Shown piece by piece: positions 3,563 through 43,791 of a DNA stretch of 64,000 nt. Origin of the DNA: Clostridia bacterium (GTDB lineage: Bacteria > Bacillota > Clostridia > UMGS1883); contig JBJDXJ010000049.1 of NCBI GenBank assembly GCA_051866635.1, positions 1 to 64,000 on the forward strand, given 5' to 3'. The notes below the pieces were generated by a model. That model saw only the letters and a list, made by a program, of their open reading frames with translations. It searched no databases and was not told the DNA's origin. Numbering within the stretch: the stretch's first letter is position 1; each line of letters starts with the position of its first letter. The position numbers were made by a program, and so were the translations under genes.

Positions 3563-3629
3563 AATTTAACACCTCAATAAATTATATGCACAGTGCAAAA
3601 AAAGGTTTAAGGAAATTTCCTTAAACCTT

Positions 3630-4199
3630 TTAAAAATATGTTCGCAGTTCGTAAAGTGCGTTTTCGCTTATCAGCTTTCCGTGCTCCGAAACACTGTCCG
3701 CCACACTGTCGCAGTCTGAAACTATGCCGAATTCCGAAAACAGAGGGTCTGTGTTTTCAATTACCATGTAGTAGCTGTTTTGGTAAAAATACAGACAGCC
3801 CCCTTCCTCTTCGCTAAAAAACTTTGCCATATTAACTGCATCTTCAAAATCCGAAAATTTAATGCATGCATATTTCCCCGCATTTTCTGTGGGACGGACC
3901 TTAAGCTTAATACGCCTTTTAACGGCATGGACAGCTTCTCTTAAATCCTCCATATCATCAAGCTTTGTAATATACATCACAAGAGAGTCATTTTCACCGG
4001 GCATAGCCTCAACCATCAAGCGGCAGTCAGAAGCGGAAAAGCCCGTTTCCTCCTCAGCTTTTCTGACAACGTTCATTAGAACCTTCTGCATCTGAGGTGC
4101 GTTATTTTTCACAGCCTCAGGTGTTATATTGTGCTCAATCAAGTCCTCATATGTGAATGTAACTTTTATTTTGTTAAGGTGAATTTTCTCAATTTTCAT
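3630..4199 (-). CDS. mecA: Adaptor protein MecA
   Basis: MKIEKIHLNKIKVTFTYEDL N-terminus, LMVEA, FSDFED, LYFYQNSYY and SEHGK typical of MecA; start reassigned to ATG 4199. Confidence 0.85.
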   Translation of the reverse strand: MKIEKIHLNKIKVTFTYEDLIEHNITPEAVKNNAPQMQKVLMNVVRKAEEETGFSASDCRLMVEAMPGENDSLVMYITKLDDMEDLREAVHAVKRRIKLKVRPTENAGKYACIKFSDFEDAVNMAKFFSEEEGGCLYFYQNSYYMVIENTDPLFSEFGIVSDCDSVADSVSEHGKLISENALYELRTYF

Positions 4200-33707: not shown

Positions 33708-34376
33708 TTGACATATATAAAATTTGTATGTGATGCAATCGAAAATATAAATATTGGGAAACCTATTTATACAAAAGATATAGCAAAAAAAATGGCAGAT
33801 AATTATTGCATGCAAGAAAAAGACGCTGCTCTTGCAACATCTGTTGCTTTTAAAAGGATTATAGATACTAATATAGTACCTCAATTAAGATATTATCAAA
33901 AAGGAATTTATTACAAAGTGACCGCTACACCGTTTGGAGAAACAAAAATAAATAAAGAGCAGCTTATAGCAGATAAATATATACTCCCCGATAGGGGCTA
34001 CGAAACAGGTCTTTCACTTATGCATCAAATGGGTTTAACAACGCAAATTCCAAAAGAGAGAACAATAGCAACAAATGCTGCAAAGGATTGTGCAAGAGCC
34101 GATAAAAAGCTTGGGGTGATAATTAAGCCGCCCAAGGTGAAAATTACAAAGAAAAACAAAGATTATTTGCAGATACTTGATGTGTTGGAGCTGATTGATA
34201 AAGCACCTGTTGACGACCGGCAGACATATATAACTATAGCGAATCAAATAGAAAAAAGAAATCTGCAATACGGTGAATTACTTGCCTTTGCAAATAACTA
34301 TTATAATAAAAAGACAATATTAAATCTTGCAAATACAGCAAGTGCCGGAGGTGTGCATAATGAAACTGCATTTTGA
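33708..34376 (+). CDS. AbiEi-like type IV TA antitoxin
   Basis: wHTH-like N-terminus, GIYY and GYETG...GLTTQIP; coupled to the nucleotidyltransferase gene. Confidence 0.75.
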   Translation: MTYIKFVCDAIENINIGKPIYTKDIAKKMADNYCMQEKDAALATSVAFKRIIDTNIVPQLRYYQKGIYYKVTATPFGETKINKEQLIADKYILPDRGYETGLSLMHQMGLTTQIPKERTIATNAAKDCARADKKLGVIIKPPKVKITKKNKDYLQILDVLELIDKAPVDDRQTYITIANQIEKRNLQYGELLAFANNYYNKKTILNLANTASAGGVHNETAF

Positions 34377-35340
34377 CAGAAATGCCTTTGCCGTAATTTT
34401 AAATACAATACATGAAAGAACCGGTTACAGAACAGATGTACTGGAAAAAGATTATTATGTCGTATTGGTGTTAAAGGAACTGTCGGAATTCCAAAAGAAC
34501 GGATTGCCGGCTTATTTCAAGGGCGGAACTGCACTATATAAAGCCCTGAAAACAACAAATAGATTTTCCGAGGACATTGATTTGTCTGTTGACACTCGCA
34601 ATTGCACACGCAGTCAAAATGATAAAAGACTTGAAAAAGCAACAAAAAGGTACACTGTATTACAAAGAGTCTGTGATGAAGGCAGAACCAATCGCTCAGA
34701 AATTATATCTGTATATAAGTACGAGCCTGTGACCGTCTACGATGCTAACGATAGCTTACAGAGGTTTGGCAAATTGAAAATAGAAGCTACTTCCTTTACT
34801 ATAAGCGAGCCCGTTTCTTCGTTGAAAGTATCTGCCATGATATACAATTTGGCAACAGATGAAGAAAAGGAAATACTTGAATCAGTCTATGATGTAAAGC
34901 CTTTTTCAGTGATGACTATTACTCTTGAAAGGATTTTTGTGGATAAATTATTTGCCGCAGAGTCATATATAAGAACCTCGGATAAGGCAAACCGTGCTTT
35001 TGAAGCGGCAAAGCATATTTATGACTTATCGGTTTTGGAGAAACATCCTCAAATTATTTCTTTACTGCAAGACGAGGAACAGTTAGAAAGATTGCTTGAA
35101 ATACGTATTAAAGAAGAACAAAATCGATTGGACGGTGTTCCAAATCTTTTACCGAAAGATTTTATATTTTTTACGAATGCTGAGGGAAATGTCGCTGTCC
35201 GAAAAGCTTATGAAATCATGCAAAGTCAATATGTAATGAGGGATTGTGATAAAATTGATTTTACACTGGCAACAGAAAGCATTAAAAATATTTATAACCG
35301 TTTACTGTTAAATCCTGCATGGAATAAATGCAATATATGA
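34360..35340 (+). CDS. AbiEii/AbiGii nucleotidyltransferase toxin
   Basis: EKDYY, FKGGTAL, RFSEDIDL, DKL and HIYDL. Confidence 0.9.
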   Translation: MKLHFDRNAFAVILNTIHERTGYRTDVLEKDYYVVLVLKELSEFQKNGLPAYFKGGTALYKALKTTNRFSEDIDLSVDTRNCTRSQNDKRLEKATKRYTVLQRVCDEGRTNRSEIISVYKYEPVTVYDANDSLQRFGKLKIEATSFTISEPVSSLKVSAMIYNLATDEEKEILESVYDVKPFSVMTITLERIFVDKLFAAESYIRTSDKANRAFEAAKHIYDLSVLEKHPQIISLLQDEEQLERLLEIRIKEEQNRLDGVPNLLPKDFIFFTNAEGNVAVRKAYEIMQSQYVMRDCDKIDFTLATESIKNIYNRLLLNPAWNKCNI

Positions 35341-35383
35341 AAATAAATGAGGAGTACACCTTACTAATTCAAAGGTGTACTCC

Positions 35384-35466
35384 TTTTTTACGTTATAGGA
35401 AATTCCTCATTTCTTATTCTGTCTGACTTAGCTAAGCTATTGTCAAAAGCGAGGAGACACTTTGTT
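35384..35466 (+). repeat. Deleted copy of a composite repeat (family A palindrome + 30-bp segment)
   Basis: Inverted homolog of 43832-44002; 35437-35466 matches the reverse complement of 43832-43861 at 29/30. Confidence 0.75.
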
Positions 35467-35517
35467 TTTTTAATACTTTACAGCCCATGTGGTAAAATAT
35501 TAAAAAGGAGTGGTTGT

Positions 35518-36387
35518 ATGACTATAAACTGCGGCATAATAGCCGAATTTAAAAATTACCTTATGGAAGAGGAGAAGTCCTTTTCAACAGTGGACAAGTA
35601 TGTCCGAGATGTAAATAAATTTGCACAAAAGATAGGAGATGAAGAAATCACAAAAGCTAAACTTTTAGAATATAAAACAGCTCTGTGCAAAAGCTATGCC
35701 CCCTCCAGCGTCAATGGAGCAATATCATCCCTAAACGCCTTTTTCGATTTTGTGCAATGCCCCAATTTGAAATTAAAGTCTGTAAAAATCCAGCGGAAAA
35801 TATTTATGAGCAAAGAAAAGGAGCTTTCAAAAAAGGAGTACGAAAGGCTTGTCCGCACCGCAAAAGAAAAGAAAAACAAACGCCTCTTTTACCTTATGCA
35901 AACTATATGTTCCACAGGTATACGGGTTTCCGAACTAAGGTTTGTAACGGTGGGGGCTGTTAAATCGGGAGAAGTGCAAATAAACCTGAAAGGCAAAATA
36001 CGCTGTATTTTACTGCCCGGCAGTCTTATAAAAATGTTAAAACAATATATAAAGGAAGAAAAAATTAAAAAAGGCCCCGTTTTTGTAACAAAAAACGGAA
36101 AGCCATTGGATAGGAGCAATATATGGCACGATATGAAAAACCTTTGCACACAGGCAGGGGTGGATAGCAGAAAAGTGTTCCCCCACAATTTAAGGCATCT
36201 GTTTGCCCGTGCCTTTTATTCAATCCAAAAAGACATTGTCCGTCTGGCAGATATTTTAGGTCATTCAAGCATAAATACAACACGCATTTACACCATGGAA
36301 ACAGGCGACATTCACTTAAAACAGATAGAAAAACTGGGGCTTGTTTGTTTTATAGGAAATTATAAAGAAAATAAAAATACCACATAA
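35518..36387 (+). CDS. Tyrosine recombinase / putative invertase
   Basis: Catalytic set intact: TGIRVSE (R), KGK, HNLRH, LGHS and TTRIY; stop codon lies inside the left recombination site. Confidence 0.93.
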   Translation: MTINCGIIAEFKNYLMEEEKSFSTVDKYVRDVNKFAQKIGDEEITKAKLLEYKTALCKSYAPSSVNGAISSLNAFFDFVQCPNLKLKSVKIQRKIFMSKEKELSKKEYERLVRTAKEKKNKRLFYLMQTICSTGIRVSELRFVTVGAVKSGEVQINLKGKIRCILLPGSLIKMLKQYIKEEKIKKGPVFVTKNGKPLDRSNIWHDMKNLCTQAGVDSRKVFPHNLRHLFARAFYSIQKDIVRLADILGHSSINTTRIYTMETGDIHLKQIEKLGLVCFIGNYKENKNTT

Positions 36388-36402
36388 TCTACATTATGTG
36401 GT
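36376..36402 (+). repeat. Left recombination site (IRL)
   Basis: aat-ACCACATAAT-ctac-ATTATGTGGT; exact reverse complement of 36693-36719. Confidence 0.92.
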
Positions 36403-36433
36403 GAACCAAAATTACATATAGCCTTTGAAGTTA

Positions 36434-36462
36434 ATTATAGCAGTTAATTTACCCATTGTCAA
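36434..36462 (-). promoter_or_regulatory. Consensus sigma-A promoter inside the invertible segment (OFF orientation)
   Basis: Minus strand TTGACA-atgggtaaattaactgc(17)-TATAAT. Confidence 0.9.
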
Positions 36463-36488
36463 GAGTTTTTTACTAATTTTGCATATGG

Positions 36489-36521
36489 CAAAAAGACCAA
36501 TGGAAGCATTGGTCCTTTTGT
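36489..36521 (+). terminator. Hairpin/terminator inside the invertible segment
   Basis: gcaaaaagaccaatg-gaag-cattggtccttttgt. Confidence 0.6.
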
Positions 36522-36692
36522 GTTGCGTTTTTTGTGCACTCAATTAAGTTTTATCAGGTAATTGCAACGTTTTTTAAGGTACAGGGACACTCCCGGTCAT
36601 TCATTTGGGGTGCTTTGGTGAAAAATTAGAACAGCACTTGGCTTTGGGTCGGGGGTGTCCCGTGTGGTGGGCTTTAGTGAGACAGCTTTAAT

Positions 36693-36719
36693 ACCACATA
36701 ATGTAGATTATGTGGTATT
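36693..36719 (-). repeat. Right recombination site (IRR)
   Basis: ACCACATAAT-gtag-ATTATGTGGT-att; asymmetric core inverted relative to IRL. Confidence 0.92.
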
Positions 36720-36721
36720 GA

Positions 36722-36771
36722 CCACCTCATCAGCCGCCCTGCGGCGACAGCTTCCCCTCAAGGGGAAGCCT
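36722..36771. repeat. REP-like double-hairpin element
   Basis: cctcatcagccgccctgcggcgacagcttcccctcaaggggaagcc; GC-rich twin hairpins. Confidence 0.55.
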
Positions 36772-36788
36772 GTGAGGCTTTTTTACAG

Positions 36789-36924
36789 ACAATTTCCTCC
36801 AATGAAATTGTACACGCATGGGGAGGAGCGTTTACCACATTAGCTGCTCCCCTTCGACTGCGTGGTTTCGTTGGTATGTTAATATATAAACAGGTACGGA
36901 TTTAACCGTACAAAAAACGCATTT
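36789..36924 (+). ncRNA. Putative structured leader RNA, copy 1
   Basis: Direct repeat of 37143-37284 with nested stems. Confidence 0.55.
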
Positions 36925-37127
36925 CGTGCCATTTTAAAGGGAAAAACAGAAACACGGCACTTTTAAAAAAAAGATGCCGTGTTTTTTCCGACCTTTTTAA
37001 AAAAAAGATGTCGTTTTACTGCCTTGACTTTAAAATTAAATAATAGCAAAATAAAAAATAGCGATAAATATGCTGATGAATACAGATTACACCAATAATT
37101 ATTGTTTCATCCATATGCATATTTTTT

Positions 37128-37284
37128 GCCAACAAAATTACTACAATTTCCTCCAATGAAGTTGTACACGCATGGGGAGGAGCGCTTACCACATTAGCTG
37201 CTCCCCTTTGACCGCGTGTTTTTGTTGGCAGATTAAATTAATATATAAATAGGTACGGATTTAACCGTACTAAAAAAAGCATTT
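37128..37284 (+). ncRNA. Putative structured leader RNA, copy 2 (with outer stem gccaacaaaa/ttttgttggc)
   Basis: Stems acaatttc/gaagttgt, acacgc/gcgtgt, ggggag/ctcccc and gtacgg/ccgtac. Confidence 0.6.
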
Positions 37285-37421
37285 AATTTTTTTATATAAA
37301 TTTAATTTGGAAATGAAAGCGTCACAAATTCCTGAGGTCGACAGGAAAGGCGATTGATTTTCCATTTCTGTGCGGCGTTGCCGCAAATAAAAAATATAAA
37401 AAATAATGGAGGAAATTAGTA

Positions 37422-40400
37422 ATGAAACTTAAAAGATTTTTAGCCATTGTAATTTCCCTTGCAATGGTACTTTCTATTGTGCCGGCGTTTAGCTTAACAG
37501 CAAGCGCGGCGGATATAACAGATGCCGCCCTTCTTGCCTATGCTACAAGCAGCACAACGGCTTTGTTTGACGCCACAAACCCCGCTCCCACCGCGGTAAG
37601 TGATACTGCAATTGCAACCGCTTGGCCCGAATCCGGCTGGTCGGGAACTATTAATAACGGTTACCTTAATGTCAATGCGGGCCCCAGAATTCAGTGCTAC
37701 ATCGGCTCGTATACAAACGGCGGTCAGGCTGCGAACTTTGTAAACTTGGGCTCCGGCTACGGCTCCGGCAACGACTGGGTGCTTCTCAGATTTACTGCCG
37801 AGTACACATGTGCATGGGGCGACCTTGCTCTTTATGATATTGACGGCAATATCCTTACAGCGGTTCGTTACGGTACAGGCGACTCTAACTGCTTTGCTCC
37901 TTCCTGGGGTCATTCAGGTTGGGGTACACCCTACAGCTTTTCTAACTATACACTTTCCGCAGAAGGTGTTGTAGCTAACCTTACAAGCGGTTCTTCTTTG
38001 ATTGATATTCTTCTTCGAAACTACGATCCCGACGGAACAGCTTCAAGCGGCGACGAATACTACACAGCTACATTCTTTGTTAACGGTACATCTGTCTGCG
38101 TAGGTACATACACAGGTCTCGGTAACTTTAACGGCCTTGGCAAAATCGGCATGAGCCGTGGTTCAGGTAATTCTTGGGAGCGTATTTCCATGAAGACTCC
38201 CCTTGTTTATGCAGGCGACTATCCTGCAACTTCTGATGCTTCAACTATTGCGGCAGCTCTTAGCGCTCTTTCTGTTCCTGCTCTTACAAAGGGCGTGGAT
38301 ATAACACTTCCTGCTACGGCAACAGACTCTATGGGTACAACTGTGGACGTTACATGGACATCTTCCAATACAAGTGTTATTTCAAACACAGGTGTTGTAA
38401 CAGCTCCCGCGGCACTTACAGAAGTTACACTTACACCTTCTGCAACATTTGAAGAGGCAACCGTTACAGGCTCAGCAAAAAAAGTAACCGTGTTCCCTGC
38501 ATCTTATGCAAAAGATAGTATGTATGGGTACTATAAAATCGGCGACAAGGTTGATACATCAAGCATCAGCTGGTATCACCGTCAGACAACAGACGGCAGC
38601 GTTGGTGTAGATGGATTGACAACAACTACCGAAAACGGTGTAACATATTACACATTCCCTGCACTGGGAGGTGTTGGCGGTACTAACGCAAGAACATCCA
38701 TAGGTATTACGGCAGGTAACAGCTACCTTGTTCGTTTCTACTATGGCGGTACTGCTTTAGGCAACGGCGCCGGAAACACATACAATAAGGTATATACAAC
38801 AGCCGGTGCTTATAATGATGAAGTAGCTTTAGACTATGTTTCAGGTACAGCAAGTACAGGTATTACAACCACTGCCAATGTATGGACAGAAATACAGACA
38901 GTATTTACAGCTTCCGAAGGCGCAAACTTCCTTACATTTGTATACAGCTGGCTTGATGCAGGATTAAAGATTGCAGATGTTGAGCTTTACAATGTTACCG
39001 ATTTGTCAAAGACTGTTACTTTAAATATCTTAGACGTGGATGGTAACACCGTTAAAACACTTGAGGAGAGGTGTATATCAGGCGGAAGTGTTACATTTGA
39101 GGCACAGAGCTTTGCATCTAACGGTATATTCTACACTACCGAAGAGAAGACATACGAAAATGTAACAGAAGATGCTACATATACAATTTTTGCAACAGCT
39201 GACGCAAGTAAATATGCTTCTGTTGAAAGTTATACATGGAACTACACCACAGGGGCAGATATTTCATCTACGCTTACAAAGGGTAATATCTCCGGTCTTT
39301 CCGACACTCTTATGACAATTAACTGGGGCAACACAAGACAGGGTATTATTAACTTTAATGTTCCCATAACAAGCGGCCAGCAGCTTGCTTCCGCAACGCT
39401 TACCCTTCGTCTCGGTGGTCAGCAGGGTGATTCTGTCGGTTTTGATGTGTATGCAATGCCCAAATCAAAATCACCCAAGGTGGCAGCAGCTCCCGATTCA
39501 GCTGCAGGCGTAAAGGTAGGTTCATACTCCGGCTCATACTCCGGCGAAGCACAGGACGCTGTAATAGAAGTTCCCCTTACATTCTCTGACTATGTTGACA
39601 CCTCCGAAGGCCTTACATTAAGGCTTGCGGCAAATAGCCAGATGGGTGTGTATTGGGGTGCAAACCAGGGCGAAAGAGCACCTTTCCTTTCCAATATTAC
39701 AATGGGCGAAATTACAGCAACAGCCGTTACGGTTAACTGTGTAGACACAAACAGTACGCTTCTTCAGACAGGTACTCAGTATCATACAAGCTTTTACGGA
39801 TATAACAGTGAATTGATTTACCCCGAATTGGAAATCCCCACAATCGACGGTTATATCTTCAAGAGCAAGAGCGTATCCGGCACTACGGTAACGCTTAAAT
39901 ATGCCCAAGATACACAGGACGACTACTTCTTTGACAATATTACAAATATGAACACAAGGTTCATATCTCTTAATATGCTCGGTGCACATAACGCTTTCAC
40001 CAGCGAAATGACAGACAAGTCAGATGCTGCTGCACTTAAGCAGGAAAATTCAATGGGCGGTGCTTACGGCGGTGCATTAGCTCCCAATACGGCGCTCCCC
40101 AGAAGTAAGGCACAGGACAAAGATACGCTTGAAATGCTCCGTGCAGGTGCCCGTTACTTTGATATTCGTGTTTCCCGTTCCGAATCAAACAGCTCATATT
40201 TAGGTGTATCGGCAAAGCATACAAACGGCGTAATGTACACAACACACGCGCTCCTTGGCGGCGAGTTAAGACCCATTCTTTATACAATCGCTCAGTGGGC
40301 AGAAACTCACCCCGGCGAAATTATTGTTCTTGACTTCCAGGAATTTTATGATTACAATTCCGGATATGACGGAAACTCTACGGCACAGTCATGGAGAGAT

Positions 40401-42641
40401 CTTGATACCCTCCTTACACAGACAGGTGTTAATAACTATGTAACAATCGGCAATCAGTCCCTTAAAAATGTTACATACGGCGATCTTACCTCAAACGGCA
40501 CAAAGGCAGGCATAGTTCTGTTCGGTCGTGCAACAGCAACAAACTCAAGTGTCGGCAAGTTCATCCTTCGCGGTACACTTAACAACGCATTTGAAGGTAA
40601 GGCATATTCAAACTATGACAAGAGCGGAACAAGTATAGGTTCAAGCTACAGTGCAGCCTATATCCAGGCTCAGGTTGACCATATGGACCAGTATCAGTCT
40701 GTAACAGGCGACTCAACCGGCGACAACATTATTTACTGGATGTTCAGAATAATGCAGGGTCAGAGCGAAGGAAGCAACCTTGTTACTCAGGGTGCAAGCG
40801 ATAACACAAGCCTTTACAACGGTATTGTTGCTAATCCCTCTTGGCTTACAGCACTTCCTGTTGTAATGGTTAACACTGTGGGTACAAACACAGACAATAT
40901 CGTTACACTTCTTAAAGAATGTAATGTGCCCACAGAAACAGTTAACTATGTTTATAACGGAACAGTGGTTAAATCAGTTCCCAATGCTGCACTTGTCGGC
41001 ACACTTTACACAAACGACGGCTTCTATGATGAACCTGTCTACAAGCTTATGGCAGGCACAGACGGCGAATACTACGTTTCCGAAACCTTCTACACAGCTC
41101 CTTCCGCAGGCACAGTTACAAAGGTTGTAAAGGGCAGTGCAGTAGAAGTTGACGTTACAAAGCTCGGCAATGTTTACTCATCACGAGGCGGTAAGCTTTA
41201 CGCAGATAAGCTTACAGATGACGGTGCCTACACAGGTAAGGACAGCTTTGCTGCCTTCAACTGGGGCACTACTCCTGCAGACAGAATAGGTGTAGCGGTT
41301 CTCAGTGCAGAAACAGGCAGAAGTGCATATATGCTTTCCGCAACAGAGGTAAGAAAGTACTTTAACACCTCTGCCGGTGCAACAAAGTTCTATGCAATCC
41401 CGGCTGCAACATACCGTTCACTTGACCTTTATAATGCAAGCGAAGTTATCTCCTATATGACAGATGCTAACCTTGTTGCTACCATAAGCCACGGCAACTG
41501 CGGCGATACAAGTGTAGGTACAGCTGAAATTATACTTGACACAGATAAAATTTCTGCAATTGCAGCAAGCGGTGACGTTGTAATTTTAGGTGACAGCGTA
41601 AACGGTCTTTACGGCTTAAAGAACGATATAAGTATTGTTTCTTGCTACGTTGTTGAAAGCACAACAGAAGGTGCTACAACTACAACAGTTGTTAAACCCG
41701 GCGGCACATACACACTTGGCACGGCTAAAGTTTATGAAGATGGAGATAATAAACTTTATGCACCCGAAAGCAATGTAACTGTAACCGGTGATATGACATT
41801 TAACGGATATAATACTTTAGGTGCAAACGTTGTTAACGGTGCACAGGTACGTATTGGCGACGGTGTTGATAAAGACGGCAAGATTTCCACAGGCAGCGGT
41901 CTCAGATTTATCACAACGGTTAACGCAGTCGATACAATTGCCGGTCTTACAAATATTACAGAAATAGGTGTTCGTATTACGGCTGAAGGCAACAGTGCAT
42001 ACAAAGATATTGTTACAACAGACTGGCAGACAGAAGACCACTCGGTATTCACATCTGCTCTCACAAACCTTGAAGTAACAAACTACAACCGTAAATTCAC
42101 AGCTACTCCTTATGTTAAGTATACTGATACAGCAACAGGCGATGAAGTAGTGGTTCTCGGTTCTACTGAAACTACAAGAAGTATCTATCAGGTAGCCGCA
42201 GGTCTCCTTGCAAACGGTTACACAACAGATAACGGTACAGGAAGTGACCCCGAAGACCATACAGGTGAAATGCCCGAAGTACTTGTAAAGGTTCTTAACG
42301 CATATGTAAACCAGACAGGTATCCGTCTTACACTTGCAGACAGCACACTTACAGCACGTACAACAGGCTCAGGTAGCTACACAGGCGACGCATTCTTTGA
42401 AGTAAGCGGTGCAACTACAGGAACTGATGAAGAAGGTAATACAACATATACATGTGTACTTACACCTGTAGGCAGTGCAAAGATCAATACAAATTACTGG
42501 AACGAATATGTAAGAATTAACAACAACAATAAAGCAATTGCCGGATATGTAGAACTCGCAGACAACGGCAACAATACATATACACTTACATTTAAGTACG
42601 GTAAATATAGTGTAGACAAAGCAGCAGCTTCTGCTGAATAA
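37422..42641 (+). CDS. Large secreted/surface protein with Ig-like and lectin-like domains and a PI-PLC X-like catalytic domain
   Basis: Signal peptide; atrophied-Ig motif (VTWTSSNTSVISNTGVVTAP); PI-PLC motifs LGAHNAF, QDKDTLEMLRAGARYFDIRV, THA and HPGEIIVLDF. Confidence 0.75.
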   Translation: MKLKRFLAIVISLAMVLSIVPAFSLTASAADITDAALLAYATSSTTALFDATNPAPTAVSDTAIATAWPESGWSGTINNGYLNVNAGPRIQCYIGSYTNGGQAANFVNLGSGYGSGNDWVLLRFTAEYTCAWGDLALYDIDGNILTAVRYGTGDSNCFAPSWGHSGWGTPYSFSNYTLSAEGVVANLTSGSSLIDILLRNYDPDGTASSGDEYYTATFFVNGTSVCVGTYTGLGNFNGLGKIGMSRGSGNSWERISMKTPLVYAGDYPATSDASTIAAALSALSVPALTKGVDITLPATATDSMGTTVDVTWTSSNTSVISNTGVVTAPAALTEVTLTPSATFEEATVTGSAKKVTVFPASYAKDSMYGYYKIGDKVDTSSISWYHRQTTDGSVGVDGLTTTTENGVTYYTFPALGGVGGTNARTSIGITAGNSYLVRFYYGGTALGNGAGNTYNKVYTTAGAYNDEVALDYVSGTASTGITTTANVWTEIQTVFTASEGANFLTFVYSWLDAGLKIADVELYNVTDLSKTVTLNILDVDGNTVKTLEERCISGGSVTFEAQSFASNGIFYTTEEKTYENVTEDATYTIFATADASKYASVESYTWNYTTGADISSTLTKGNISGLSDTLMTINWGNTRQGIINFNVPITSGQQLASATLTLRLGGQQGDSVGFDVYAMPKSKSPKVAAAPDSAAGVKVGSYSGSYSGEAQDAVIEVPLTFSDYVDTSEGLTLRLAANSQMGVYWGANQGERAPFLSNITMGEITATAVTVNCVDTNSTLLQTGTQYHTSFYGYNSELIYPELEIPTIDGYIFKSKSVSGTTVTLKYAQDTQDDYFFDNITNMNTRFISLNMLGAHNAFTSEMTDKSDAAALKQENSMGGAYGGALAPNTALPRSKAQDKDTLEMLRAGARYFDIRVSRSESNSSYLGVSAKHTNGVMYTTHALLGGELRPILYTIAQWAETHPGEIIVLDFQEFYDYNSGYDGNSTAQSWRDLDTLLTQTGVNNYVTIGNQSLKNVTYGDLTSNGTKAGIVLFGRATATNSSVGKFILRGTLNNAFEGKAYSNYDKSGTSIGSSYSAAYIQAQVDHMDQYQSVTGDSTGDNIIYWMFRIMQGQSEGSNLVTQGASDNTSLYNGIVANPSWLTALPVVMVNTVGTNTDNIVTLLKECNVPTETVNYVYNGTVVKSVPNAALVGTLYTNDGFYDEPVYKLMAGTDGEYYVSETFYTAPSAGTVTKVVKGSAVEVDVTKLGNVYSSRGGKLYADKLTDDGAYTGKDSFAAFNWGTTPADRIGVAVLSAETGRSAYMLSATEVRKYFNTSAGATKFYAIPAATYRSLDLYNASEVISYMTDANLVATISHGNCGDTSVGTAEIILDTDKISAIAASGDVVILGDSVNGLYGLKNDISIVSCYVVESTTEGATTTTVVKPGGTYTLGTAKVYEDGDNKLYAPESNVTVTGDMTFNGYNTLGANVVNGAQVRIGDGVDKDGKISTGSGLRFITTVNAVDTIAGLTNITEIGVRITAEGNSAYKDIVTTDWQTEDHSVFTSALTNLEVTNYNRKFTATPYVKYTDTATGDEVVVLGSTETTRSIYQVAAGLLANGYTTDNGTGSDPEDHTGEMPEVLVKVLNAYVNQTGIRLTLADSTLTARTTGSGSYTGDAFFEVSGATTGTDEEGNTTYTCVLTPVGSAKINTNYWNEYVRINNNNKAIAGYVELADNGNNTYTLTFKYGKYSVDKAAASAE

Positions 42642-42895: not shown

Positions 42896-43228
42896 AAGTA
42901 TCCTCCCCCTTCTATCGAAAATGAGAGGATGGAATAACCGCCCGGCTTTTACACTGTTTTCAGTCTTATCTTTAACATCGGATTGCTCCGACAAGGTACA
43001 GTATACACTAAATTTATACATCTTTTTATAAAACTCTGCCCTGCAACTTTTCGGTTGCAGGGCATTTTAATGCTAAAAATACGATTAGTTGCAGATGTAT
43101 TGATTTTGCAACATATCCTGTGTATTTTTAGAATGCTTACGAAAAAATAAAAAAATTCGTGCAAACTGTTGATTTTTTCGTGCAAATTAAATATAATAAT
43201 AGTGAAGCCAAGAAAAGGAGATGATTAT

Positions 43229-43504
43229 ATGGCAACTTCAACTAATATAAGTATTCGTATGGATACCGAAACAAAAGCAAAAGCTGACGCACTTTTCGCC
43301 GAATTGGGTATGAATTTAACAACAGCTTTTAACATTTTTGTACGCCAATCGCTCAGAGAAGGTAAAATACCATTTGAAATATCACTTAATCAGCCTAACG
43401 CAGAAACAATAGCAGCTATGATGGAGGCAGAGAGGATAGCAACCGACACATCTGTTAAAGGATATACAGATATGGATAAGATGTTTGCCGACCTTGCCCG
43501 ATGA
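43229..43504 (+). CDS. RelB/DinJ antitoxin
   Basis: ISIRMD...LGMNLTTAFNIFVRQ...IPF, PNAET. Confidence 0.92.
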   Translation: MATSTNISIRMDTETKAKADALFAELGMNLTTAFNIFVRQSLREGKIPFEISLNQPNAETIAAMMEAERIATDTSVKGYTDMDKMFADLAR

Positions 43505-43791
43505 ACAAAACAAAATATGAGGTAAAAACCACCTCACAGTTTAAAAAAGATTATAAAGCTGCAATTAAGCGTAATTGTGATATTGAGCATTTACAAAAGG
43601 TAATTACAAAATTGGCTAACGGCGAAAATCTTGATGATAAATACTATGACCATCCATTGACAGGACAATGGAAAGGATACCGAGAATGCCACATTGAGCC
43701 GGATTGGTTATTGATTTATTTAATCAAGAAAGATGTTCTTGTTTTAACTCTTACACGAACAGGGACACATTCAGACTTATTTGGAAAATAA
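43501..43791 (+). CDS. YafQ-family mRNA interferase toxin
   Basis: FKKDYK, DHPLTG, RECHIEPDWLLIY and RTGTHSDLF. Confidence 0.93.
   Translation: MNKTKYEVKTTSQFKKDYKAAIKRNCDIEHLQKVITKLANGENLDDKYYDHPLTGQWKGYRECHIEPDWLLIYLIKKDVLVLTLTRTGTHSDLFGK

What the first reader, a model, noticed from the sequence alone, without database searches (positions are those of the whole stretch)
35518..42641. Recombinase-driven invertible promoter (phase-variation switch) upstream of a giant surface PI-PLC-like protein, caught in the OFF state
Seen: a tyrosine recombinase with all catalytic residues ends inside a 27-bp site (36376-36402) whose exact reverse complement lies at 36693-36719. Each site has palindromic ACCACATAAT arms around an asymmetric ctac/gtag core. 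The segment between them holds a perfect TTGACA-17-TATAAT promoter on the minus strand, about 30 bp from the left site, firing antisense into the recombinase. Established: inverted sites with asymmetric cores give inversion, as in FimB/FimE fimS and the C. difficile RecV switches. Inference: flipping would aim the promoter at the leader and the 1739-aa gene. The recombinase stop codon is in the outer arm, so it survives flipping. OFF-state antisense transcription could repress the invertase and bias switching.
Basis: partly seen in the sequence, partly recalled or inferred. Interest (0 to 1): 0.88.

Follow-up and report, generated by a model that had tools for sequence, protein, structure and literature searches.

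The report
Invertible promoter switch, OFF state
A gut Clostridia bacterium carries a flip-able DNA switch, with its own recombinase and a strong promoter, next to a huge secreted enzyme-like protein; it belongs to a large, little-described family of such switches.

Summary
A XerC/D-like tyrosine recombinase (35518-36387) ends inside a 27-nt site (36376-36402). The exact reverse complement of that site lies at 36693-36719. Between the sites, a 12/12 TTGACA-17-TATAAT promoter with a TG extension points at the recombinase.

The locus is one of four paralogous cassettes in this genome (3 OFF, 1 ON). It belongs to a large Clostridia family:
- At least 600 loci in one scan of species genomes.
- 72 of 301 sampled genomes of the class carry the recombinase family.

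Inversion is shown for the family. In two near-identical genomes the flanks are collinear (97-98% identity), and the 301 nt bounded exactly by the sites are inverted at 99.7% identity. Nine of 31 alignable cassette pairs are mutually inverted. No flipped copy of this particular locus could be found.

- The left site plus a conserved U-run forms a terminator-like hairpin. It should stop the OFF-state transcript before it enters the recombinase gene, so antisense repression is doubtful.
- This copy has an unusually long 702-nt leader with two terminator-like hairpins, so coupling to the 1739-aa gene is uncertain.

The cargo's central domain folds like bacterial PI-PLC.

Verdict: a new member of a known kind. 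The closest published description is probably "inverton group 139" of PMC11892184.

The parts
35518..36387 (+). Dedicated tyrosine recombinase (invertase), 289 aa. Its ORF is extended at the C-terminus into the left site.
   Evidence: Pfam Phage_integrase 2.7e-26 and SAM-like N-domain. Best solved relatives are XerC-like 4a8e (5.7e-22) and XerA. The catalytic residues R136, K160, H223, R226, H249 and Y258 are invariant in alignment A1. Relatives end at ...LGLLxC*, whereas here the ORF runs on to NKNTT*.
36376..36402 (.). Left recombination site (IR-L): arms ACCACATAAT / ATTATGTGGT around the asymmetric core CTAC (36389-36392). On the minus strand the hairpin is followed by a U-run (36378..36366), which makes it terminator-like.
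   Evidence: It was flagged as terminator-like on the minus strand. The hairpin also appears in the fold of the predicted OFF transcript. The A-run outside IR-L has a median of 8 of 12 nt in 62 relatives.
36434..36462 (-). Sigma-70-type promoter, TTGACA-17-TATAAT with a TG extension. It fires toward IR-L and the recombinase, which is the OFF orientation.
   Evidence: 12 of 12 matches. A near-consensus promoter lies at the same relative place in the relatives, with a median of 56.5 nt from the -10 end to the outer end of the site it faces.
36495..36514 (.). GACCAATG-GAAG-CATTGGTC hairpin flanked by an A-run and a T-run. It looks like a bidirectional terminator and lies behind the promoter inside the invertible segment.
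   Evidence: terminator-like on the + strand. One search gives -17.1 kcal/mol on + and -17.8 on -, with 0 of 200 shuffles as stable. A GACCRAT...ATYGGTC palindrome is present in 33 of 62 related segments, always upstream of the -35.
36541..36682 (.). Inserted copy of a multi-copy repeat element of about 140 nt, inside the invertible segment. It is not part of the basic switch.
   Evidence: Many copies occur in genus relatives. An 11-copy alignment shows sharp boundaries. The orthologous segment in G001:C179 is 224 nt and lacks the element.
36693..36719 (.). Right recombination site (IR-R): the same arms around the core GTAG (36703-36706). No U-run follows it on the + strand.
   Evidence: T content outside IR-R has a median of 4 of 12 nt in 62 relatives.
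36723..36785 (+). REP-like Y-shaped stem structure followed by U6, immediately downstream of IR-R. It is terminator-like, and a related strain lacks it at this position.
   Evidence: Fold of -29.7 kcal/mol, z -3.5. Multi-copy in relatives. A contig of run X1 replaces 36718-36787 with 14 other letters.
36789..36917 (+). Structured leader element, copy 1. Its 5' hairpin carries AATTTCCTCCA, which is complementary to the cargo's ribosome-binding region.
   Evidence: Direct repeats D1 and D2. Fold z -4.1. Six of 23 pairs show compensatory changes across 4 sequences. The 11-nt complementarity is reached by 9 of 2000 shuffles.
36948..36986 (+). Strong hairpin followed by a U-run in the leader (terminator-like).
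   Evidence: -19.6 kcal/mol, z -6.05, with 0 of 200 shuffles as stable.
37143..37276 (+). Structured leader element, copy 2.
37422..42641 (+). Cargo gene: a 1739-aa secreted protein. It has an N-terminal signal-peptide-like sequence and an aBig_2 repeat. Residues about 820-1210 (39879-41051) form a PI-PLC-like TIM barrel.
   Evidence: Pfam aBig_2 at 4.2e-06, just under its cut-off. phmmer against S. aureus PI-PLC gives E 0.003. ESM Atlas scores 0.91 to PI-PLC-X clusters. AF2 model pLDDT 76.5 and pTM 0.84. All listed Foldseek hits with E<=0.001 are bacterial PI-PLCs (25 hits reach that level), best 1.8e-07.

Best explanation
This is a self-contained invertible-promoter switch (inverton) of a large family in gut Clostridia.

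Mechanism:
- The dedicated XerC/D-like tyrosine recombinase (35518-36387) binds the two palindromic sites (36376-36402 and 36693-36719). Their 4-nt asymmetric cores are in inverted orientation.
- Strand exchange therefore flips the 290-nt segment between the sites.
- The segment carries one strong sigma-70 promoter with a hairpin behind it that looks like a bidirectional terminator.

OFF state (the assembled orientation): the promoter fires leftward. After about 60 nt, its transcript meets the left-site hairpin followed by a U-run and is probably terminated before it enters the recombinase gene.

ON state (after inversion): the promoter would sit about 30 nt from the right site, which has no U-run. 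It would transcribe into the 702-nt leader and, if the leader's terminator-like hairpins are passed, into the 1739-aa secreted PI-PLC-like protein.

Shown: the anatomy, the family, and both orientations in relatives with inversion bounded exactly by the sites.

Inferred: that this copy still flips, that the left site terminates the OFF transcript, and that the ON state expresses the gene.
For: Anatomy.

Recombinase: catalytic residues are invariant in the family alignment.

Four paralogous cassettes in the same genome. In each, a recombinase is followed by an inverted-repeat pair 192-290 nt apart, with a promoter inside. The promoter faces the recombinase in C49, C31 and C35, and faces the cargo in C38.

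Family survey:
- The scan of species genomes gave at least 600 loci, and the best 80 were kept. Of these, 71 have the repeat pair directly after the recombinase.
- In the 62 analysable loci the core is asymmetric and inverted in 62 of 62. The promoter faces the recombinase in 43 and the cargo in 19.

Inversion events:
- L086 against L095: flanks are collinear at 97.3% and 98.6% identity. The 301 nt from outer edge to outer edge of the sites are inverted at 99.7%.
- L021 against L018: the 307-nt segment is inverted at 88%.
- Of 31 cassette pairs whose segments align over at least 60% of their length, 9 align reversed. All 9 have opposite promoter-strand calls, and all 22 forward pairs have the same call.

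Orthologous cassettes with the same cargo start and leader element: G004:C50 has its promoter on the cargo side. G001:C179 and this window have it on the recombinase side.

Assembly breaks: 8 of 80 contigs end within 385 nt after the recombinase, and 5 of these end at or within about 50 nt of the left site. Only 1 of 80 contigs ends within 400 nt before the recombinase. This fits mixed orientations in the sampled populations.

Terminator at the left site. The A-run outside the left site reaches 8 or more of 12 nt in 42 of 62 loci. The T-run outside the right site does so in 7 of 62.

Literature (PMC11892184, passages read): read-level flipping is reported for a Clostridia inverton group (139) that is linked to an adjacent tyrosine recombinase. 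The two cited examples have similar geometry, with repeats of 26 and 14 nt and 205 and 227 nt between them.
Against: - No read, contig or genome with this exact locus flipped was found. Only two runs hold small shares of the region (0.09 and 0.05), and both are kept as contigs only. One X1 contig across the right site is in the same OFF orientation. The metagenome scan gave only relatives at 50% identity or less.
- The leader is 702 nt, against mostly 10-130 nt in 66 related cassettes. It contains a Y-shaped REP-like structure followed by U6, and a -19.6 kcal/mol hairpin followed by a U-run. Either could stop an ON-state transcript.
- Two weak promoter-like sites (9 of 12) lie at 37015-37052, so the gene may have another promoter.
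- Terminator function of the left site rests on sequence pattern alone. The conserved A-run could instead serve recombination, for example by bending the DNA.
- My stricter terminator scan found internal terminators upstream of the promoter in only 9 of 62 segments. The 'insulating terminator' may therefore not be general. The common palindrome has a 15-21-nt spacer in most relatives, and it might be a protein-binding site instead.
- Related genomes are kin, so the counts and the Wilcoxon p-value overstate independence.
Confidence: 0.75

Rival explanations
1. The switch is real and flips, but in this strain it no longer controls the 1739-aa gene. Insertions and a duplication in the leader brought in terminators, so the ON promoter yields only a short leader RNA. 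The gene is then driven, if at all, by a weak promoter further downstream.
For: - Two terminator-like structures lie in the leader at 36723-36785 (followed by U6) and 36948-36986 (followed by a U-run).
- A related strain lacks the first one at this position.
- The leader holds a 354-nt direct duplication.
- At 702 nt the leader is an outlier among the 66 relatives.
- Weak promoter-like sites lie at 37015-37052.
Against: - The orthologous leaders in G004:C50 and G001:C179 are also long and full of REP-like elements, so long leaders are tolerated in this cargo lineage.
- The Y-shaped structure is not a canonical terminator and was not flagged by the scan.
- The downstream promoter-like sites match only 9 of 12 positions.
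- The conserved structured leader element suggests a regulated leader rather than a dead one.
Confidence: 0.2
2. One reading: in the OFF state the promoter transcribes antisense through the recombinase gene. This represses the invertase and biases the switch toward staying OFF.
For: - The geometry fits: the promoter points at the 3' end of the recombinase gene.
- OFF is the majority orientation, in 43 of 62 relatives and in 3 of 4 cassettes in this genome. That would fit a self-locking OFF state.
Against: - The left-site hairpin (a 10-bp stem) is followed directly by AUUUUUAUUUU on the minus strand.
- This U-run is conserved outside the left site, reaching 8 or more of 12 nt in 42 of 62 loci. 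In most relatives it is non-coding.
- The right site mostly lacks such a run (7 of 62).
- The stem is AU-rich, so some read-through remains possible.
Confidence: 0.2
3. A frozen relic: the locus derives from an inverton but no longer inverts in this organism.
For: - No flipped form of this locus was seen.
- A 140-nt repeat element is inserted in the segment.
- The recombinase has an aberrant C-terminal extension.
- Some relatives keep only a single site, namely L089 and L053.
Against: - The two sites are still 27 of 27 identical.
- The recombinase ORF is intact with all catalytic residues.
- The promoter is a perfect match.
- The insertion lies behind the hairpin, away from the promoter-to-site path.
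Confidence: 0.08
4. Not an inversion system: the sites are dif-like or att-like targets of a Xer-type resolvase or integrase, or plain hairpins.
For: The best sequence matches of the recombinase are XerA, XerC and XerD.
Against: - All Xer models score far below their cut-offs. XerA scores 139.6 against 220, and XerD scores 125.4 against 329.6.
- There are four copies per genome, each with its own pair of sites.
- The cores are inverted in 62 of 62 loci. That orientation gives inversion, not excision.
- Inversions bounded by the sites are observed directly.
Confidence: 0.02

Closest known systems
Inverton group 139 with tyrosine 'invertase group 35' in gut Clostridia (PMC11892184, Microbiome 2025; passages read; supplements not seen)
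   Same: - Class Clostridia.
- A tyrosine-type recombinase lies next to the inverton with its 3' end toward it (the paper's 'non-regulatable' orientation).
- The geometry of the two examples given is similar: repeats of 26 and 14 nt, with 205 and 227 nt between them. Here the repeats are 14-32 nt with 165-400 nt between.
- Read-level flipping is reported there.
   Different: - Identity with this family is not verified.
- The passages I read do not describe the site anatomy, the consensus promoter, the terminator-like left site or the cargo range.
fimS switch with FimB/FimE of Escherichia coli (recalled; NCBIfam 'tyrosine-type DNA invertase' models tested)
   Same: - Tyrosine recombinase genes lie next to a short invertible segment of about 300 bp.
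- The segment carries a sigma-70 promoter for a surface structure.
- In the OFF orientation the promoter points back toward the recombinase gene.
   Different: - The recombinase here is not of the FimB/E family (29.6 bits against a cut-off of 221).
- There is one recombinase instead of two.
- The sites are 24-nt palindromes with a 4-nt asymmetric core instead of 9-bp repeats.
- No accessory-factor sites were identified.
- The OFF transcript appears to be stopped by the site hairpin itself.
Clostridioides difficile RecV-dependent switches such as cwpV and flgB (PMC2784873 and PMC5903667, seen in the search listing only; details recalled)
   Same: - A Firmicute tyrosine recombinase inverts short segments upstream of surface-protein genes.
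- Terminator hairpins take part in the ON/OFF outcome.
   Different: - RecV is one distant recombinase acting on many sites. Here each switch has its own adjacent recombinase, with 4 per genome and up to 8 in a relative.
- In cwpV the promoter is outside the segment (recalled). Here the promoter is inside.
Bacteroides invertible promoters with adjacent Tsr-type tyrosine recombinases (recalled; cited within PMC11602134)
   Same: Dedicated tyrosine recombinases next to invertible promoters that control large surface proteins in gut commensals, with multiple copies per genome.
   Different: - A different phylum and a different promoter consensus.
- Different repeat motifs.
- Cargo in this family also includes TetR regulators, a bacteriocin exporter and other non-surface genes.

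Membership tests
Tyrosine-recombinase invertible promoter (inverton) | Two recombination sites in inverted orientation with an asymmetric crossover core | tested here: met
   27 of 27 nt inverted repeat, with core CTAC against GTAG. The core is asymmetric and inverted in 62 of 62 relatives.
Tyrosine-recombinase invertible promoter (inverton) | Site-specific recombinase with an intact R-K-H-R-H-Y active site | tested here: met
   Pfam PF00589 at 2.7e-26. R136, K160, H223, R226, H249 and Y258 are invariant in A1.
Tyrosine-recombinase invertible promoter (inverton) | Promoter inside the invertible segment, so that orientation decides the direction of transcription | tested here: met
   A 12/12 promoter with TG on the minus strand. 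It is met by consensus match only. A near-consensus promoter lies at the equivalent place in relatives.
Tyrosine-recombinase invertible promoter (inverton) | Both orientations exist for this very locus | tested here: inconclusive
   Only two runs hold small shares of the region, and they are kept as contigs. One contig is in the OFF orientation. The metagenome scan found no close relative.
Tyrosine-recombinase invertible promoter (inverton) | Both orientations exist in the family, with inversion bounded by the sites | tested here: met
   L086 against L095: 301 nt inverted at 99.7% between collinear flanks. L021 against L018. Nine of 31 alignable pairs are reversed.
Tyrosine-recombinase invertible promoter (inverton) | Expression of the downstream gene depends on orientation | not testable with these tools
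   No RNA holder was listed. This needs RNA-seq or reporter assays.
XerC/XerD/XerA chromosome-dimer resolvases | Score above the curated NCBIfam cut-off | tested here: not met
   XerA scores 139.6 against 220, XerD 125.4 against 329.6, and XerC 111 against 335. There are also four paralogs per genome, each with paired inverted sites.
FimB/FimE tyrosine-type DNA invertases | Score above the curated NCBIfam cut-off (NF007370, NF007371) | tested here: not met
   29.6 against 221 and 22.2 against 222 bits.
Bacterial PI-PLC (PLC-like phosphodiesterase TIM barrel), for the cargo domain | Sequence match to PI-PLC-X models or solved PI-PLCs | tested here: inconclusive
   - Pfam gave no family for residues 801-1250 at E<=0.1.
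- phmmer against S. aureus PI-PLC gave E 0.003 with RYFDIR aligned.
- A 21-sequence profile gave no PDB hit at 0.01.
- ESM Atlas scored 0.91 to PI-PLC-X clusters.
Bacterial PI-PLC (PLC-like phosphodiesterase TIM barrel), for the cargo domain | PI-PLC fold | tested here: met
   AF2 model with pLDDT 76.5 and pTM 0.84. All listed Foldseek hits with E<=0.001 are bacterial PI-PLCs (25 hits reach that level). The best E is 1.8e-07, and the 19 best hits have target TM-scores of 0.51-0.66.
Bacterial PI-PLC (PLC-like phosphodiesterase TIM barrel), for the cargo domain | Catalytic His/Asp/Arg set present | tested here: inconclusive
   H856, R911, D914, R916, H933 and H942 are invariant in 21 homologs. 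The nearly invariant D857 is N in the window's protein. Which residues correspond to the catalytic ones of PI-PLC was not established by a residue-level structural alignment.
Inverton group 139 / invertase group 35 (PMC11892184) | Shared inverted-repeat motif | not testable with these tools
   The motif is given only in supplementary material, which is closed. Geometry, taxon and recombinase orientation agree.

The most novel reading that the evidence does not exclude
The locus represents a portable, self-insulated ON/OFF module of gut Clostridia, made of a recombinase, two palindromic sites, one consensus promoter and an internal hairpin. In this module the recombination site itself doubles as an intrinsic terminator on the recombinase side only. 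The OFF promoter is therefore silenced after about 60 nt, and the invertase gene is shielded from convergent transcription. The module has been hitched to very different cargo: giant secreted enzymes, S-layer and LRR adhesins, TetR regulators and bacteriocin exporters. That would give several independent private switches per genome, and phase-variable regulons. In the cargo lineage seen here, a second control layer would act through a conserved leader RNA whose hairpin is complementary to the ribosome-binding site.
Probability: 0.35. Interest if true: 0.65.

Novelty: new member of a known kind. Interest (0 to 1): 0.5.

Why it matters
Phase variation by invertible promoters is well studied in Bacteroides, E. 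coli and C. difficile, but it is barely characterised in the uncultured Clostridia that dominate many guts.

- **Anatomy:** this locus gives a clean description of a widespread family. The recombinase family was found in 72 of 301 sampled genomes of the class, with up to 8 copies in one genome.
- **Practical use:** the simple signature (recombinase, then A-run, then ACCACATAAT-N4-ATTATGTGGT twice, then a consensus promoter) lets ON/OFF states be read directly from assemblies and metagenomic reads.
- **Biology:** it predicts that giant secreted or surface proteins, TetR-controlled operons and bacteriocin export vary cell to cell in these commensals.
- **Tools:** compact recombinase/site pairs, each apparently with its own 4-nt core sequence, could also be of interest as orthogonal genetic switches.

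Tried and rejected
- **Direct evidence for flipping of this locus.** The look-up of sequencing runs listed only two gut-metagenome runs, with shares of 0.09 and 0.05, and no RNA holder. Laying them gave fragments of a related strain at low depth. No strand-change joint was seen, and most of 35400-36640 had no cover. This says nothing for or against inversion.
- **Metagenome contig scan with the recombinase**. It gave 3 loci at 50% identity or less, which were useless for this purpose.
- **Rfam on 35000-38000 at E<=1**. Only chance-level hits came back (CyaR 27.8 against 47 bits, mir-84, sau-5971 and a tmRNA fragment). No known riboswitch or leader family was found.
- **A riboswitch such as c-di-GMP in the leader.** I considered this and found no support.
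- **Strict terminator scan inside the segments of relatives**. Only 9 of 62 had a canonical terminator upstream of the promoter. I therefore do not claim the internal hairpin as a general terminator. The common GACCRAT...ATYGGTC palindrome (33 of 62) remains functionally open.
- **Alignment of the invertible segments of the three orthologous cassettes**. They are too diverged for a convincing orientation call by alignment; the best reverse hit is 33 nt with E 1.6e-4. The ON call for G004:C50 therefore rests on promoter position.
- **Profile search of the cargo family against PDB sequences**. It gave no hit, so the PI-PLC assignment rests on fold, one weak phmmer hit and Atlas features.
- **Linking the family to inverton group 139 of PMC11892184.** The motif is only in the supplements, which I did not request because they are closed.
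- **Jiang et al. 2019 (Science).** The PMC id I recalled is not held, so nothing from that paper was seen.
- **Literature searches**. They found no paper describing this site motif or this recombinase family in detail. The library lacks most subscription journals.

Full report
**1. The observation**

- The repeat finder reports arms 36376-36402 and 36693-36719, 27 nt, 100% complementary, with 290 nt between them.
- Each arm holds a palindrome, ACCACATAAT-N4-ATTATGTGGT. The 4-nt centre is CTAC on the left (36389-36392) and GTAG on the right (36703-36706).
- In the whole 2.33-Mb assembly (the window is contig C49, positions 1-64000), the 10-nt arm occurs 12 times. The paired palindromic form occurs only at these two places.
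- The ORF from ATG 35518 encodes 289 aa and stops at TAA 36385-36387, inside the outer arm of the left site.
- The promoter scan finds one perfect site: minus strand, TTGACA (36462..36457), a 17-nt spacer, TATAAT (36439..36434), with TG before the -10. The other four promoter-like sites in 35300-37500 match 9 of 12 positions.
- The next long ORF is 37422-42641, 1739 aa.

**2. The recombinase**

- Pfam gives Phage_integrase (2.7e-26) with an N-terminal SAM-like domain.
- The closest solved proteins are an archaeal XerC-like recombinase (4a8e, 5.7e-22), XerA and XerD.
- All curated NCBIfam Xer models, and the FimB/FimE-type 'tyrosine-type DNA invertase' models, score far below their cut-offs. 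It is therefore a Xer-like tyrosine recombinase that belongs to none of those named families.
- In an alignment of 17 family members, R136, K160, H223, R226, H249 and Y258 are invariant.
- Relatives normally end at ...LGLLxC*, and a non-coding A-rich run follows. In this copy that stop is missing and the frame runs on (…CFIGNYKENKNTT*) into the site. 'The recombinase ends inside the site' is thus a quirk of this copy.

**3. One of four cassettes in this genome**

A search of relatives with the DNA of 35518-37421 also hit three other places in the window's own genome. Each has the same layout.

| Contig | Repeat | Nt between | Promoter | Faces |
|---|---|---|---|---|
| C49 (this locus) | 27 nt | 290 | 12/12 | recombinase |
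| C31 | 22 nt | 225 | 10/12 | recombinase |
| C35 | 24 nt | 192 | 10/12 | recombinase |
| C38 | 18 nt | 235 | TTGACT-17-TATAAT, 11/12 with TG | cargo |

So the same genome holds three switches in the OFF orientation and one in the ON orientation.

The cargo differs between cassettes:
- C31: a bacteriocin-type C39-peptidase ABC exporter plus a HlyD protein.
- C38: a 1953-aa protein with an OmpL47-type or Ig-like domain.
- C35: a DUF6625 protein.

**4. The family**

The best 80 are MAGs labelled Clostridia, Oscillospiraceae, Monoglobaceae, Feifaniaceae, Lachnospiraceae and the like, from human and animal guts.
- 71 of the 80 have an inverted-repeat pair starting within about 60 nt after the recombinase.
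- Of the 9 without a pair, 8 are contigs that end 21-385 nt after the recombinase. One (L089) has a single site only.
- In the 62 loci where both palindromes could be delimited, the 4-nt core is asymmetric and inverted between the two sites in 62 of 62. The best promoter faces the recombinase in 43 and the cargo in 19. Nine loci were dropped because the arms were under 6 nt with a 4-nt loop.
- An even sample of the class gave the recombinase family (E<=1e-70) in 72 of 301 genomes and 48 of 177 genera, with up to 8 matches in one genome.

The first ORFs downstream of the switch (66 of the 71 loci had one of at least 90 aa) are diverse:

| Pfam family | Members |
|---|---|
| TetR_N | 10 |
| SLH | 4 |
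| YpsA | 4 |
| BspA-type LRR | 3 |
| Band_7 with zinc ribbons | 3 |
| Listeria-Bacteroides repeat | 3 |
| Subtilase | 2 |
| Dockerin | 2 |

Singletons include collagen, GGDEF and a CAP12/Pycsar TIR domain.

**5. Do these switches flip?**

For the family, yes.
- L086 and L095 come from two species-level genomes. They are collinear over 1734 nt on the left (97.3%) and 3209 nt on the right (98.6%). The 301 nt from the outer edge of one site to the outer edge of the other align in reverse at 99.7%.
- A second pair from one genus (L021, L018) shows the same with a 307-nt segment at 88%.
- Among all cassettes in hand, 31 pairs have segments that align over at least 60% of their length. Of these, 22 align forward and 9 reversed. 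My independent promoter-strand calls agree in all 31 cases.
- Contigs break at the switch. Eight of 80 end within 385 nt after the recombinase, and five of these end at or within about 50 nt of the left site. Only one of 80 ends within 400 nt before the recombinase. This is expected when an assembler meets both orientations, but it is indirect evidence.

For this exact locus I found no flipped copy.
- The run search listed two runs with small shares, and they are kept as contigs only.
- Laying them showed a related strain at low depth. One contig crosses the right site in the same orientation as the window.
- The closest orthologous cassettes share the cargo start (70% DNA identity) and the leader element, and they differ in state. 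G004:C50 has its promoter (TTGACT-17-TAATAT, with TG) on the cargo side. G001:C179 and the window have it on the recombinase side. The segments are too diverged for a firm alignment-based call.

**6. How the OFF state is kept quiet**

On the minus strand, the left-site hairpin is followed directly by AUUUUUAUUUU. The pattern scan flags this as terminator-like, and the hairpin forms in the fold of the predicted OFF transcript.

The corresponding A-run outside the left site is a family feature.
- Its median is 8 of 12 nt, and it reaches 8 or more in 42 of 62 loci.
- The T content outside the right site has a median of 4, reaching 8 or more in only 7 of 62. The loci are kin, so the p-value of 4e-9 is not a true probability.
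- In most relatives the run is non-coding.

I therefore infer that the OFF promoter makes a short transcript of about 60 nt that ends at the left site. The point rests on sequence pattern only.

Behind the promoter lies a hairpin, GACCAATG-GAAG-CATTGGTC, flanked by an A-run and a T-run. It is stable on both strands, and it would stop read-through from the recombinase gene in either orientation. A related palindrome occurs in 33 of 62 relatives, always upstream of the -35, but mostly with a 15-21-nt spacer. My strict terminator scan was positive in only 9 of 62. Its general role is therefore open.

**7. The path from the switch to the gene**

The leader is 702 nt, whereas most relatives have 10-130 nt. 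It holds, in order:
- A REP-like Y-shaped structure followed by U6 (36723-36785; -29.7 kcal/mol). It is multi-copy in relatives. In a contig of run X1, 36718-36787 is replaced by 14 other letters.
- Copy 1 of a 130-nt structured element (36789-36917).
- A strong hairpin followed by a U-run (36948-36986; -19.6 kcal/mol, z -6).
- Copy 2 of the element (37143-37276).

About the 130-nt element:
- It is conserved in the orthologous leaders.
- Six of its 23 predicted pairs show compensatory changes, and there are U-G pairs on the + strand. Only four sequences from three genomes were available.
- Its 5' hairpin carries AATTTCCTCCA, which is complementary to the ribosome-binding region. Nine of 2000 shuffles reach this length, and the same 11-mer pairing exists in G004:C50.
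- Rfam has no match.

Whether an ON-state transcript reaches the gene is thus the main open point. I put about 0.2 on the switch being decoupled from the gene in this strain.

**8. The cargo**

- The N-terminus looks like a signal peptide ending in ASA (my reading; no predictor was run).
- Pfam finds only a borderline aBig_2 repeat. NCBIfam finds nothing.
- Residues 894-1095 match S. aureus PI-PLC weakly (E 0.003), with RYFDIR aligned to RFFDIR.
- A 21-sequence profile found nothing in the PDB sequences.
- ESM Atlas features point to PI-PLC-X clusters (0.91).
- An AlphaFold2 model of residues 820-1210, built with 20 homologs (pLDDT 76.5, pTM 0.84), hits bacterial PI-PLCs. These make up all listed Foldseek hits at E<=0.001, where 25 matches reach that level. 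The best E is 1.8e-07, and the 19 best hits have target TM-scores of 0.51-0.66.

'PI-PLC-like' is supported at fold level, but activity is untested. The nearly invariant D857 of the family is N in this protein. 'Surface' is not shown.

**9. Comparison with what is known, and verdict**

The locus works like fimS/FimBE, the Bacteroides Tsr-linked promoters and the C. difficile RecV switches. It is not a member of the FimB/E or Xer families by the curated models.

The nearest published description I could find is PMC11892184 (passages read).
- It reports 'inverton group 139', with 33 invertons of which 32 are from Clostridia.
- The group is linked to an adjacent tyrosine-type recombinase in the orientation seen here.
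- The geometry is similar, and read-level flipping was observed in Clostridium sp. D5 and Intestinimonas.

Three literature searches found no detailed description of this site, promoter and terminator anatomy.

I rate the locus a new member of a known kind. It is a real and very probably functional phase-variation switch in the OFF state. It has an interesting family-level architecture, and there is an open question about coupling in this copy.

Noticed in passing
window 36541-36682: A repeat element of about 140 nt sits inside the invertible segment. It has sharp boundaries and strongly conserved blocks, with a long stem GGGACAC...GTGTCCC. Many copies occur in other species of the genus, for example 7 hits in G007 and several in G003 and G004, but the DNA search found no other copy in this genome. 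Rfam gave no match. It could be a MITE-like element or a small RNA gene.
   Followed up: partly
window 36723-36785: A REP-like Y-shaped element lies directly after the right site. Many near-identical copies occur in relatives, for example 7 hits at 90-92% identity in G016. In a contig of run X1 it is replaced by 14 other letters. Similar elements fill the orthologous leaders in G004:C50 and G001:C179.
   Followed up: partly
window 36789-36880 and 37143-37234; L013:1373-1467 (-); L014:626-720 (-): A conserved two-hairpin leader RNA candidate. Six of its 23 pairs show compensatory changes, and it has U-G pairs on the + strand. Its first hairpin carries an 11-nt stretch complementary to the cargo's ribosome-binding region (37409-37419). 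The pairing is conserved in the ortholog, and 9 of 2000 shuffles reach this length. It is not in Rfam. It may be a translational control element.
   Followed up: partly
invertible segments of L038-L117 (33 of 62 analysed); window 36495-36514: The palindrome AGACCAATG...CATTGGTCT lies at a nearly constant 80-100 nt upstream of the -35. Its spacer is 15-21 nt in most relatives, but only 4 nt in the window. It could be a large-loop terminator or a protein-binding site. The question is unresolved.
   Followed up: partly
G000 contigs C31 34450-34718, C38 76437-76707, C35 6316-6555: Three further recombinase-plus-inverton cassettes occur in the same genome. They control a bacteriocin-type ABC exporter with HlyD (OFF), a 1953-aa Ig/OmpL47-domain protein (ON) and a DUF6625 protein (OFF).
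   Followed up: partly
L038-L117, first ORF after the switch: TetR-family regulators are the commonest first cargo gene (10 of 66). This suggests phase-variable regulons rather than only single surface proteins.
   Followed up: no
L089 (= G034:C44) and L053: These family members have only one recombination site after the recombinase, followed directly by the cargo. They may be switches locked by loss of one site.
   Followed up: no
window 39990-39992 (residue 857 of the 1739-aa protein): In the LGAH-D-AF motif of the PI-PLC-like domain, D is present in at least 90% of 21 homologs, but it is N in this protein. If this aligns with a catalytic Asp of PI-PLC (recalled, not tested), activity may be altered.
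   Followed up: no
window 33708-35340 and 43169-43791: The cassette is flanked by toxin-antitoxin genes. Upstream lies an AbiEii nucleotidyltransferase toxin, preceded by an overlapping 222-aa ORF with no Pfam family. Downstream lies a RelB/YafQ pair, followed by a GH2 glycosidase on the minus strand. This looks like an accessory-gene neighbourhood.
   Followed up: no
L013 (reverse strand) about 3620-3740; L014 (reverse strand) about 660-830: The leaders of the two orthologous cassettes contain arrays of short GCGATAT-like repeats, spaced about 15-20 nt apart, between the structured element and the gene-proximal leader (read by eye). These arrays are absent from the window.
   Followed up: no
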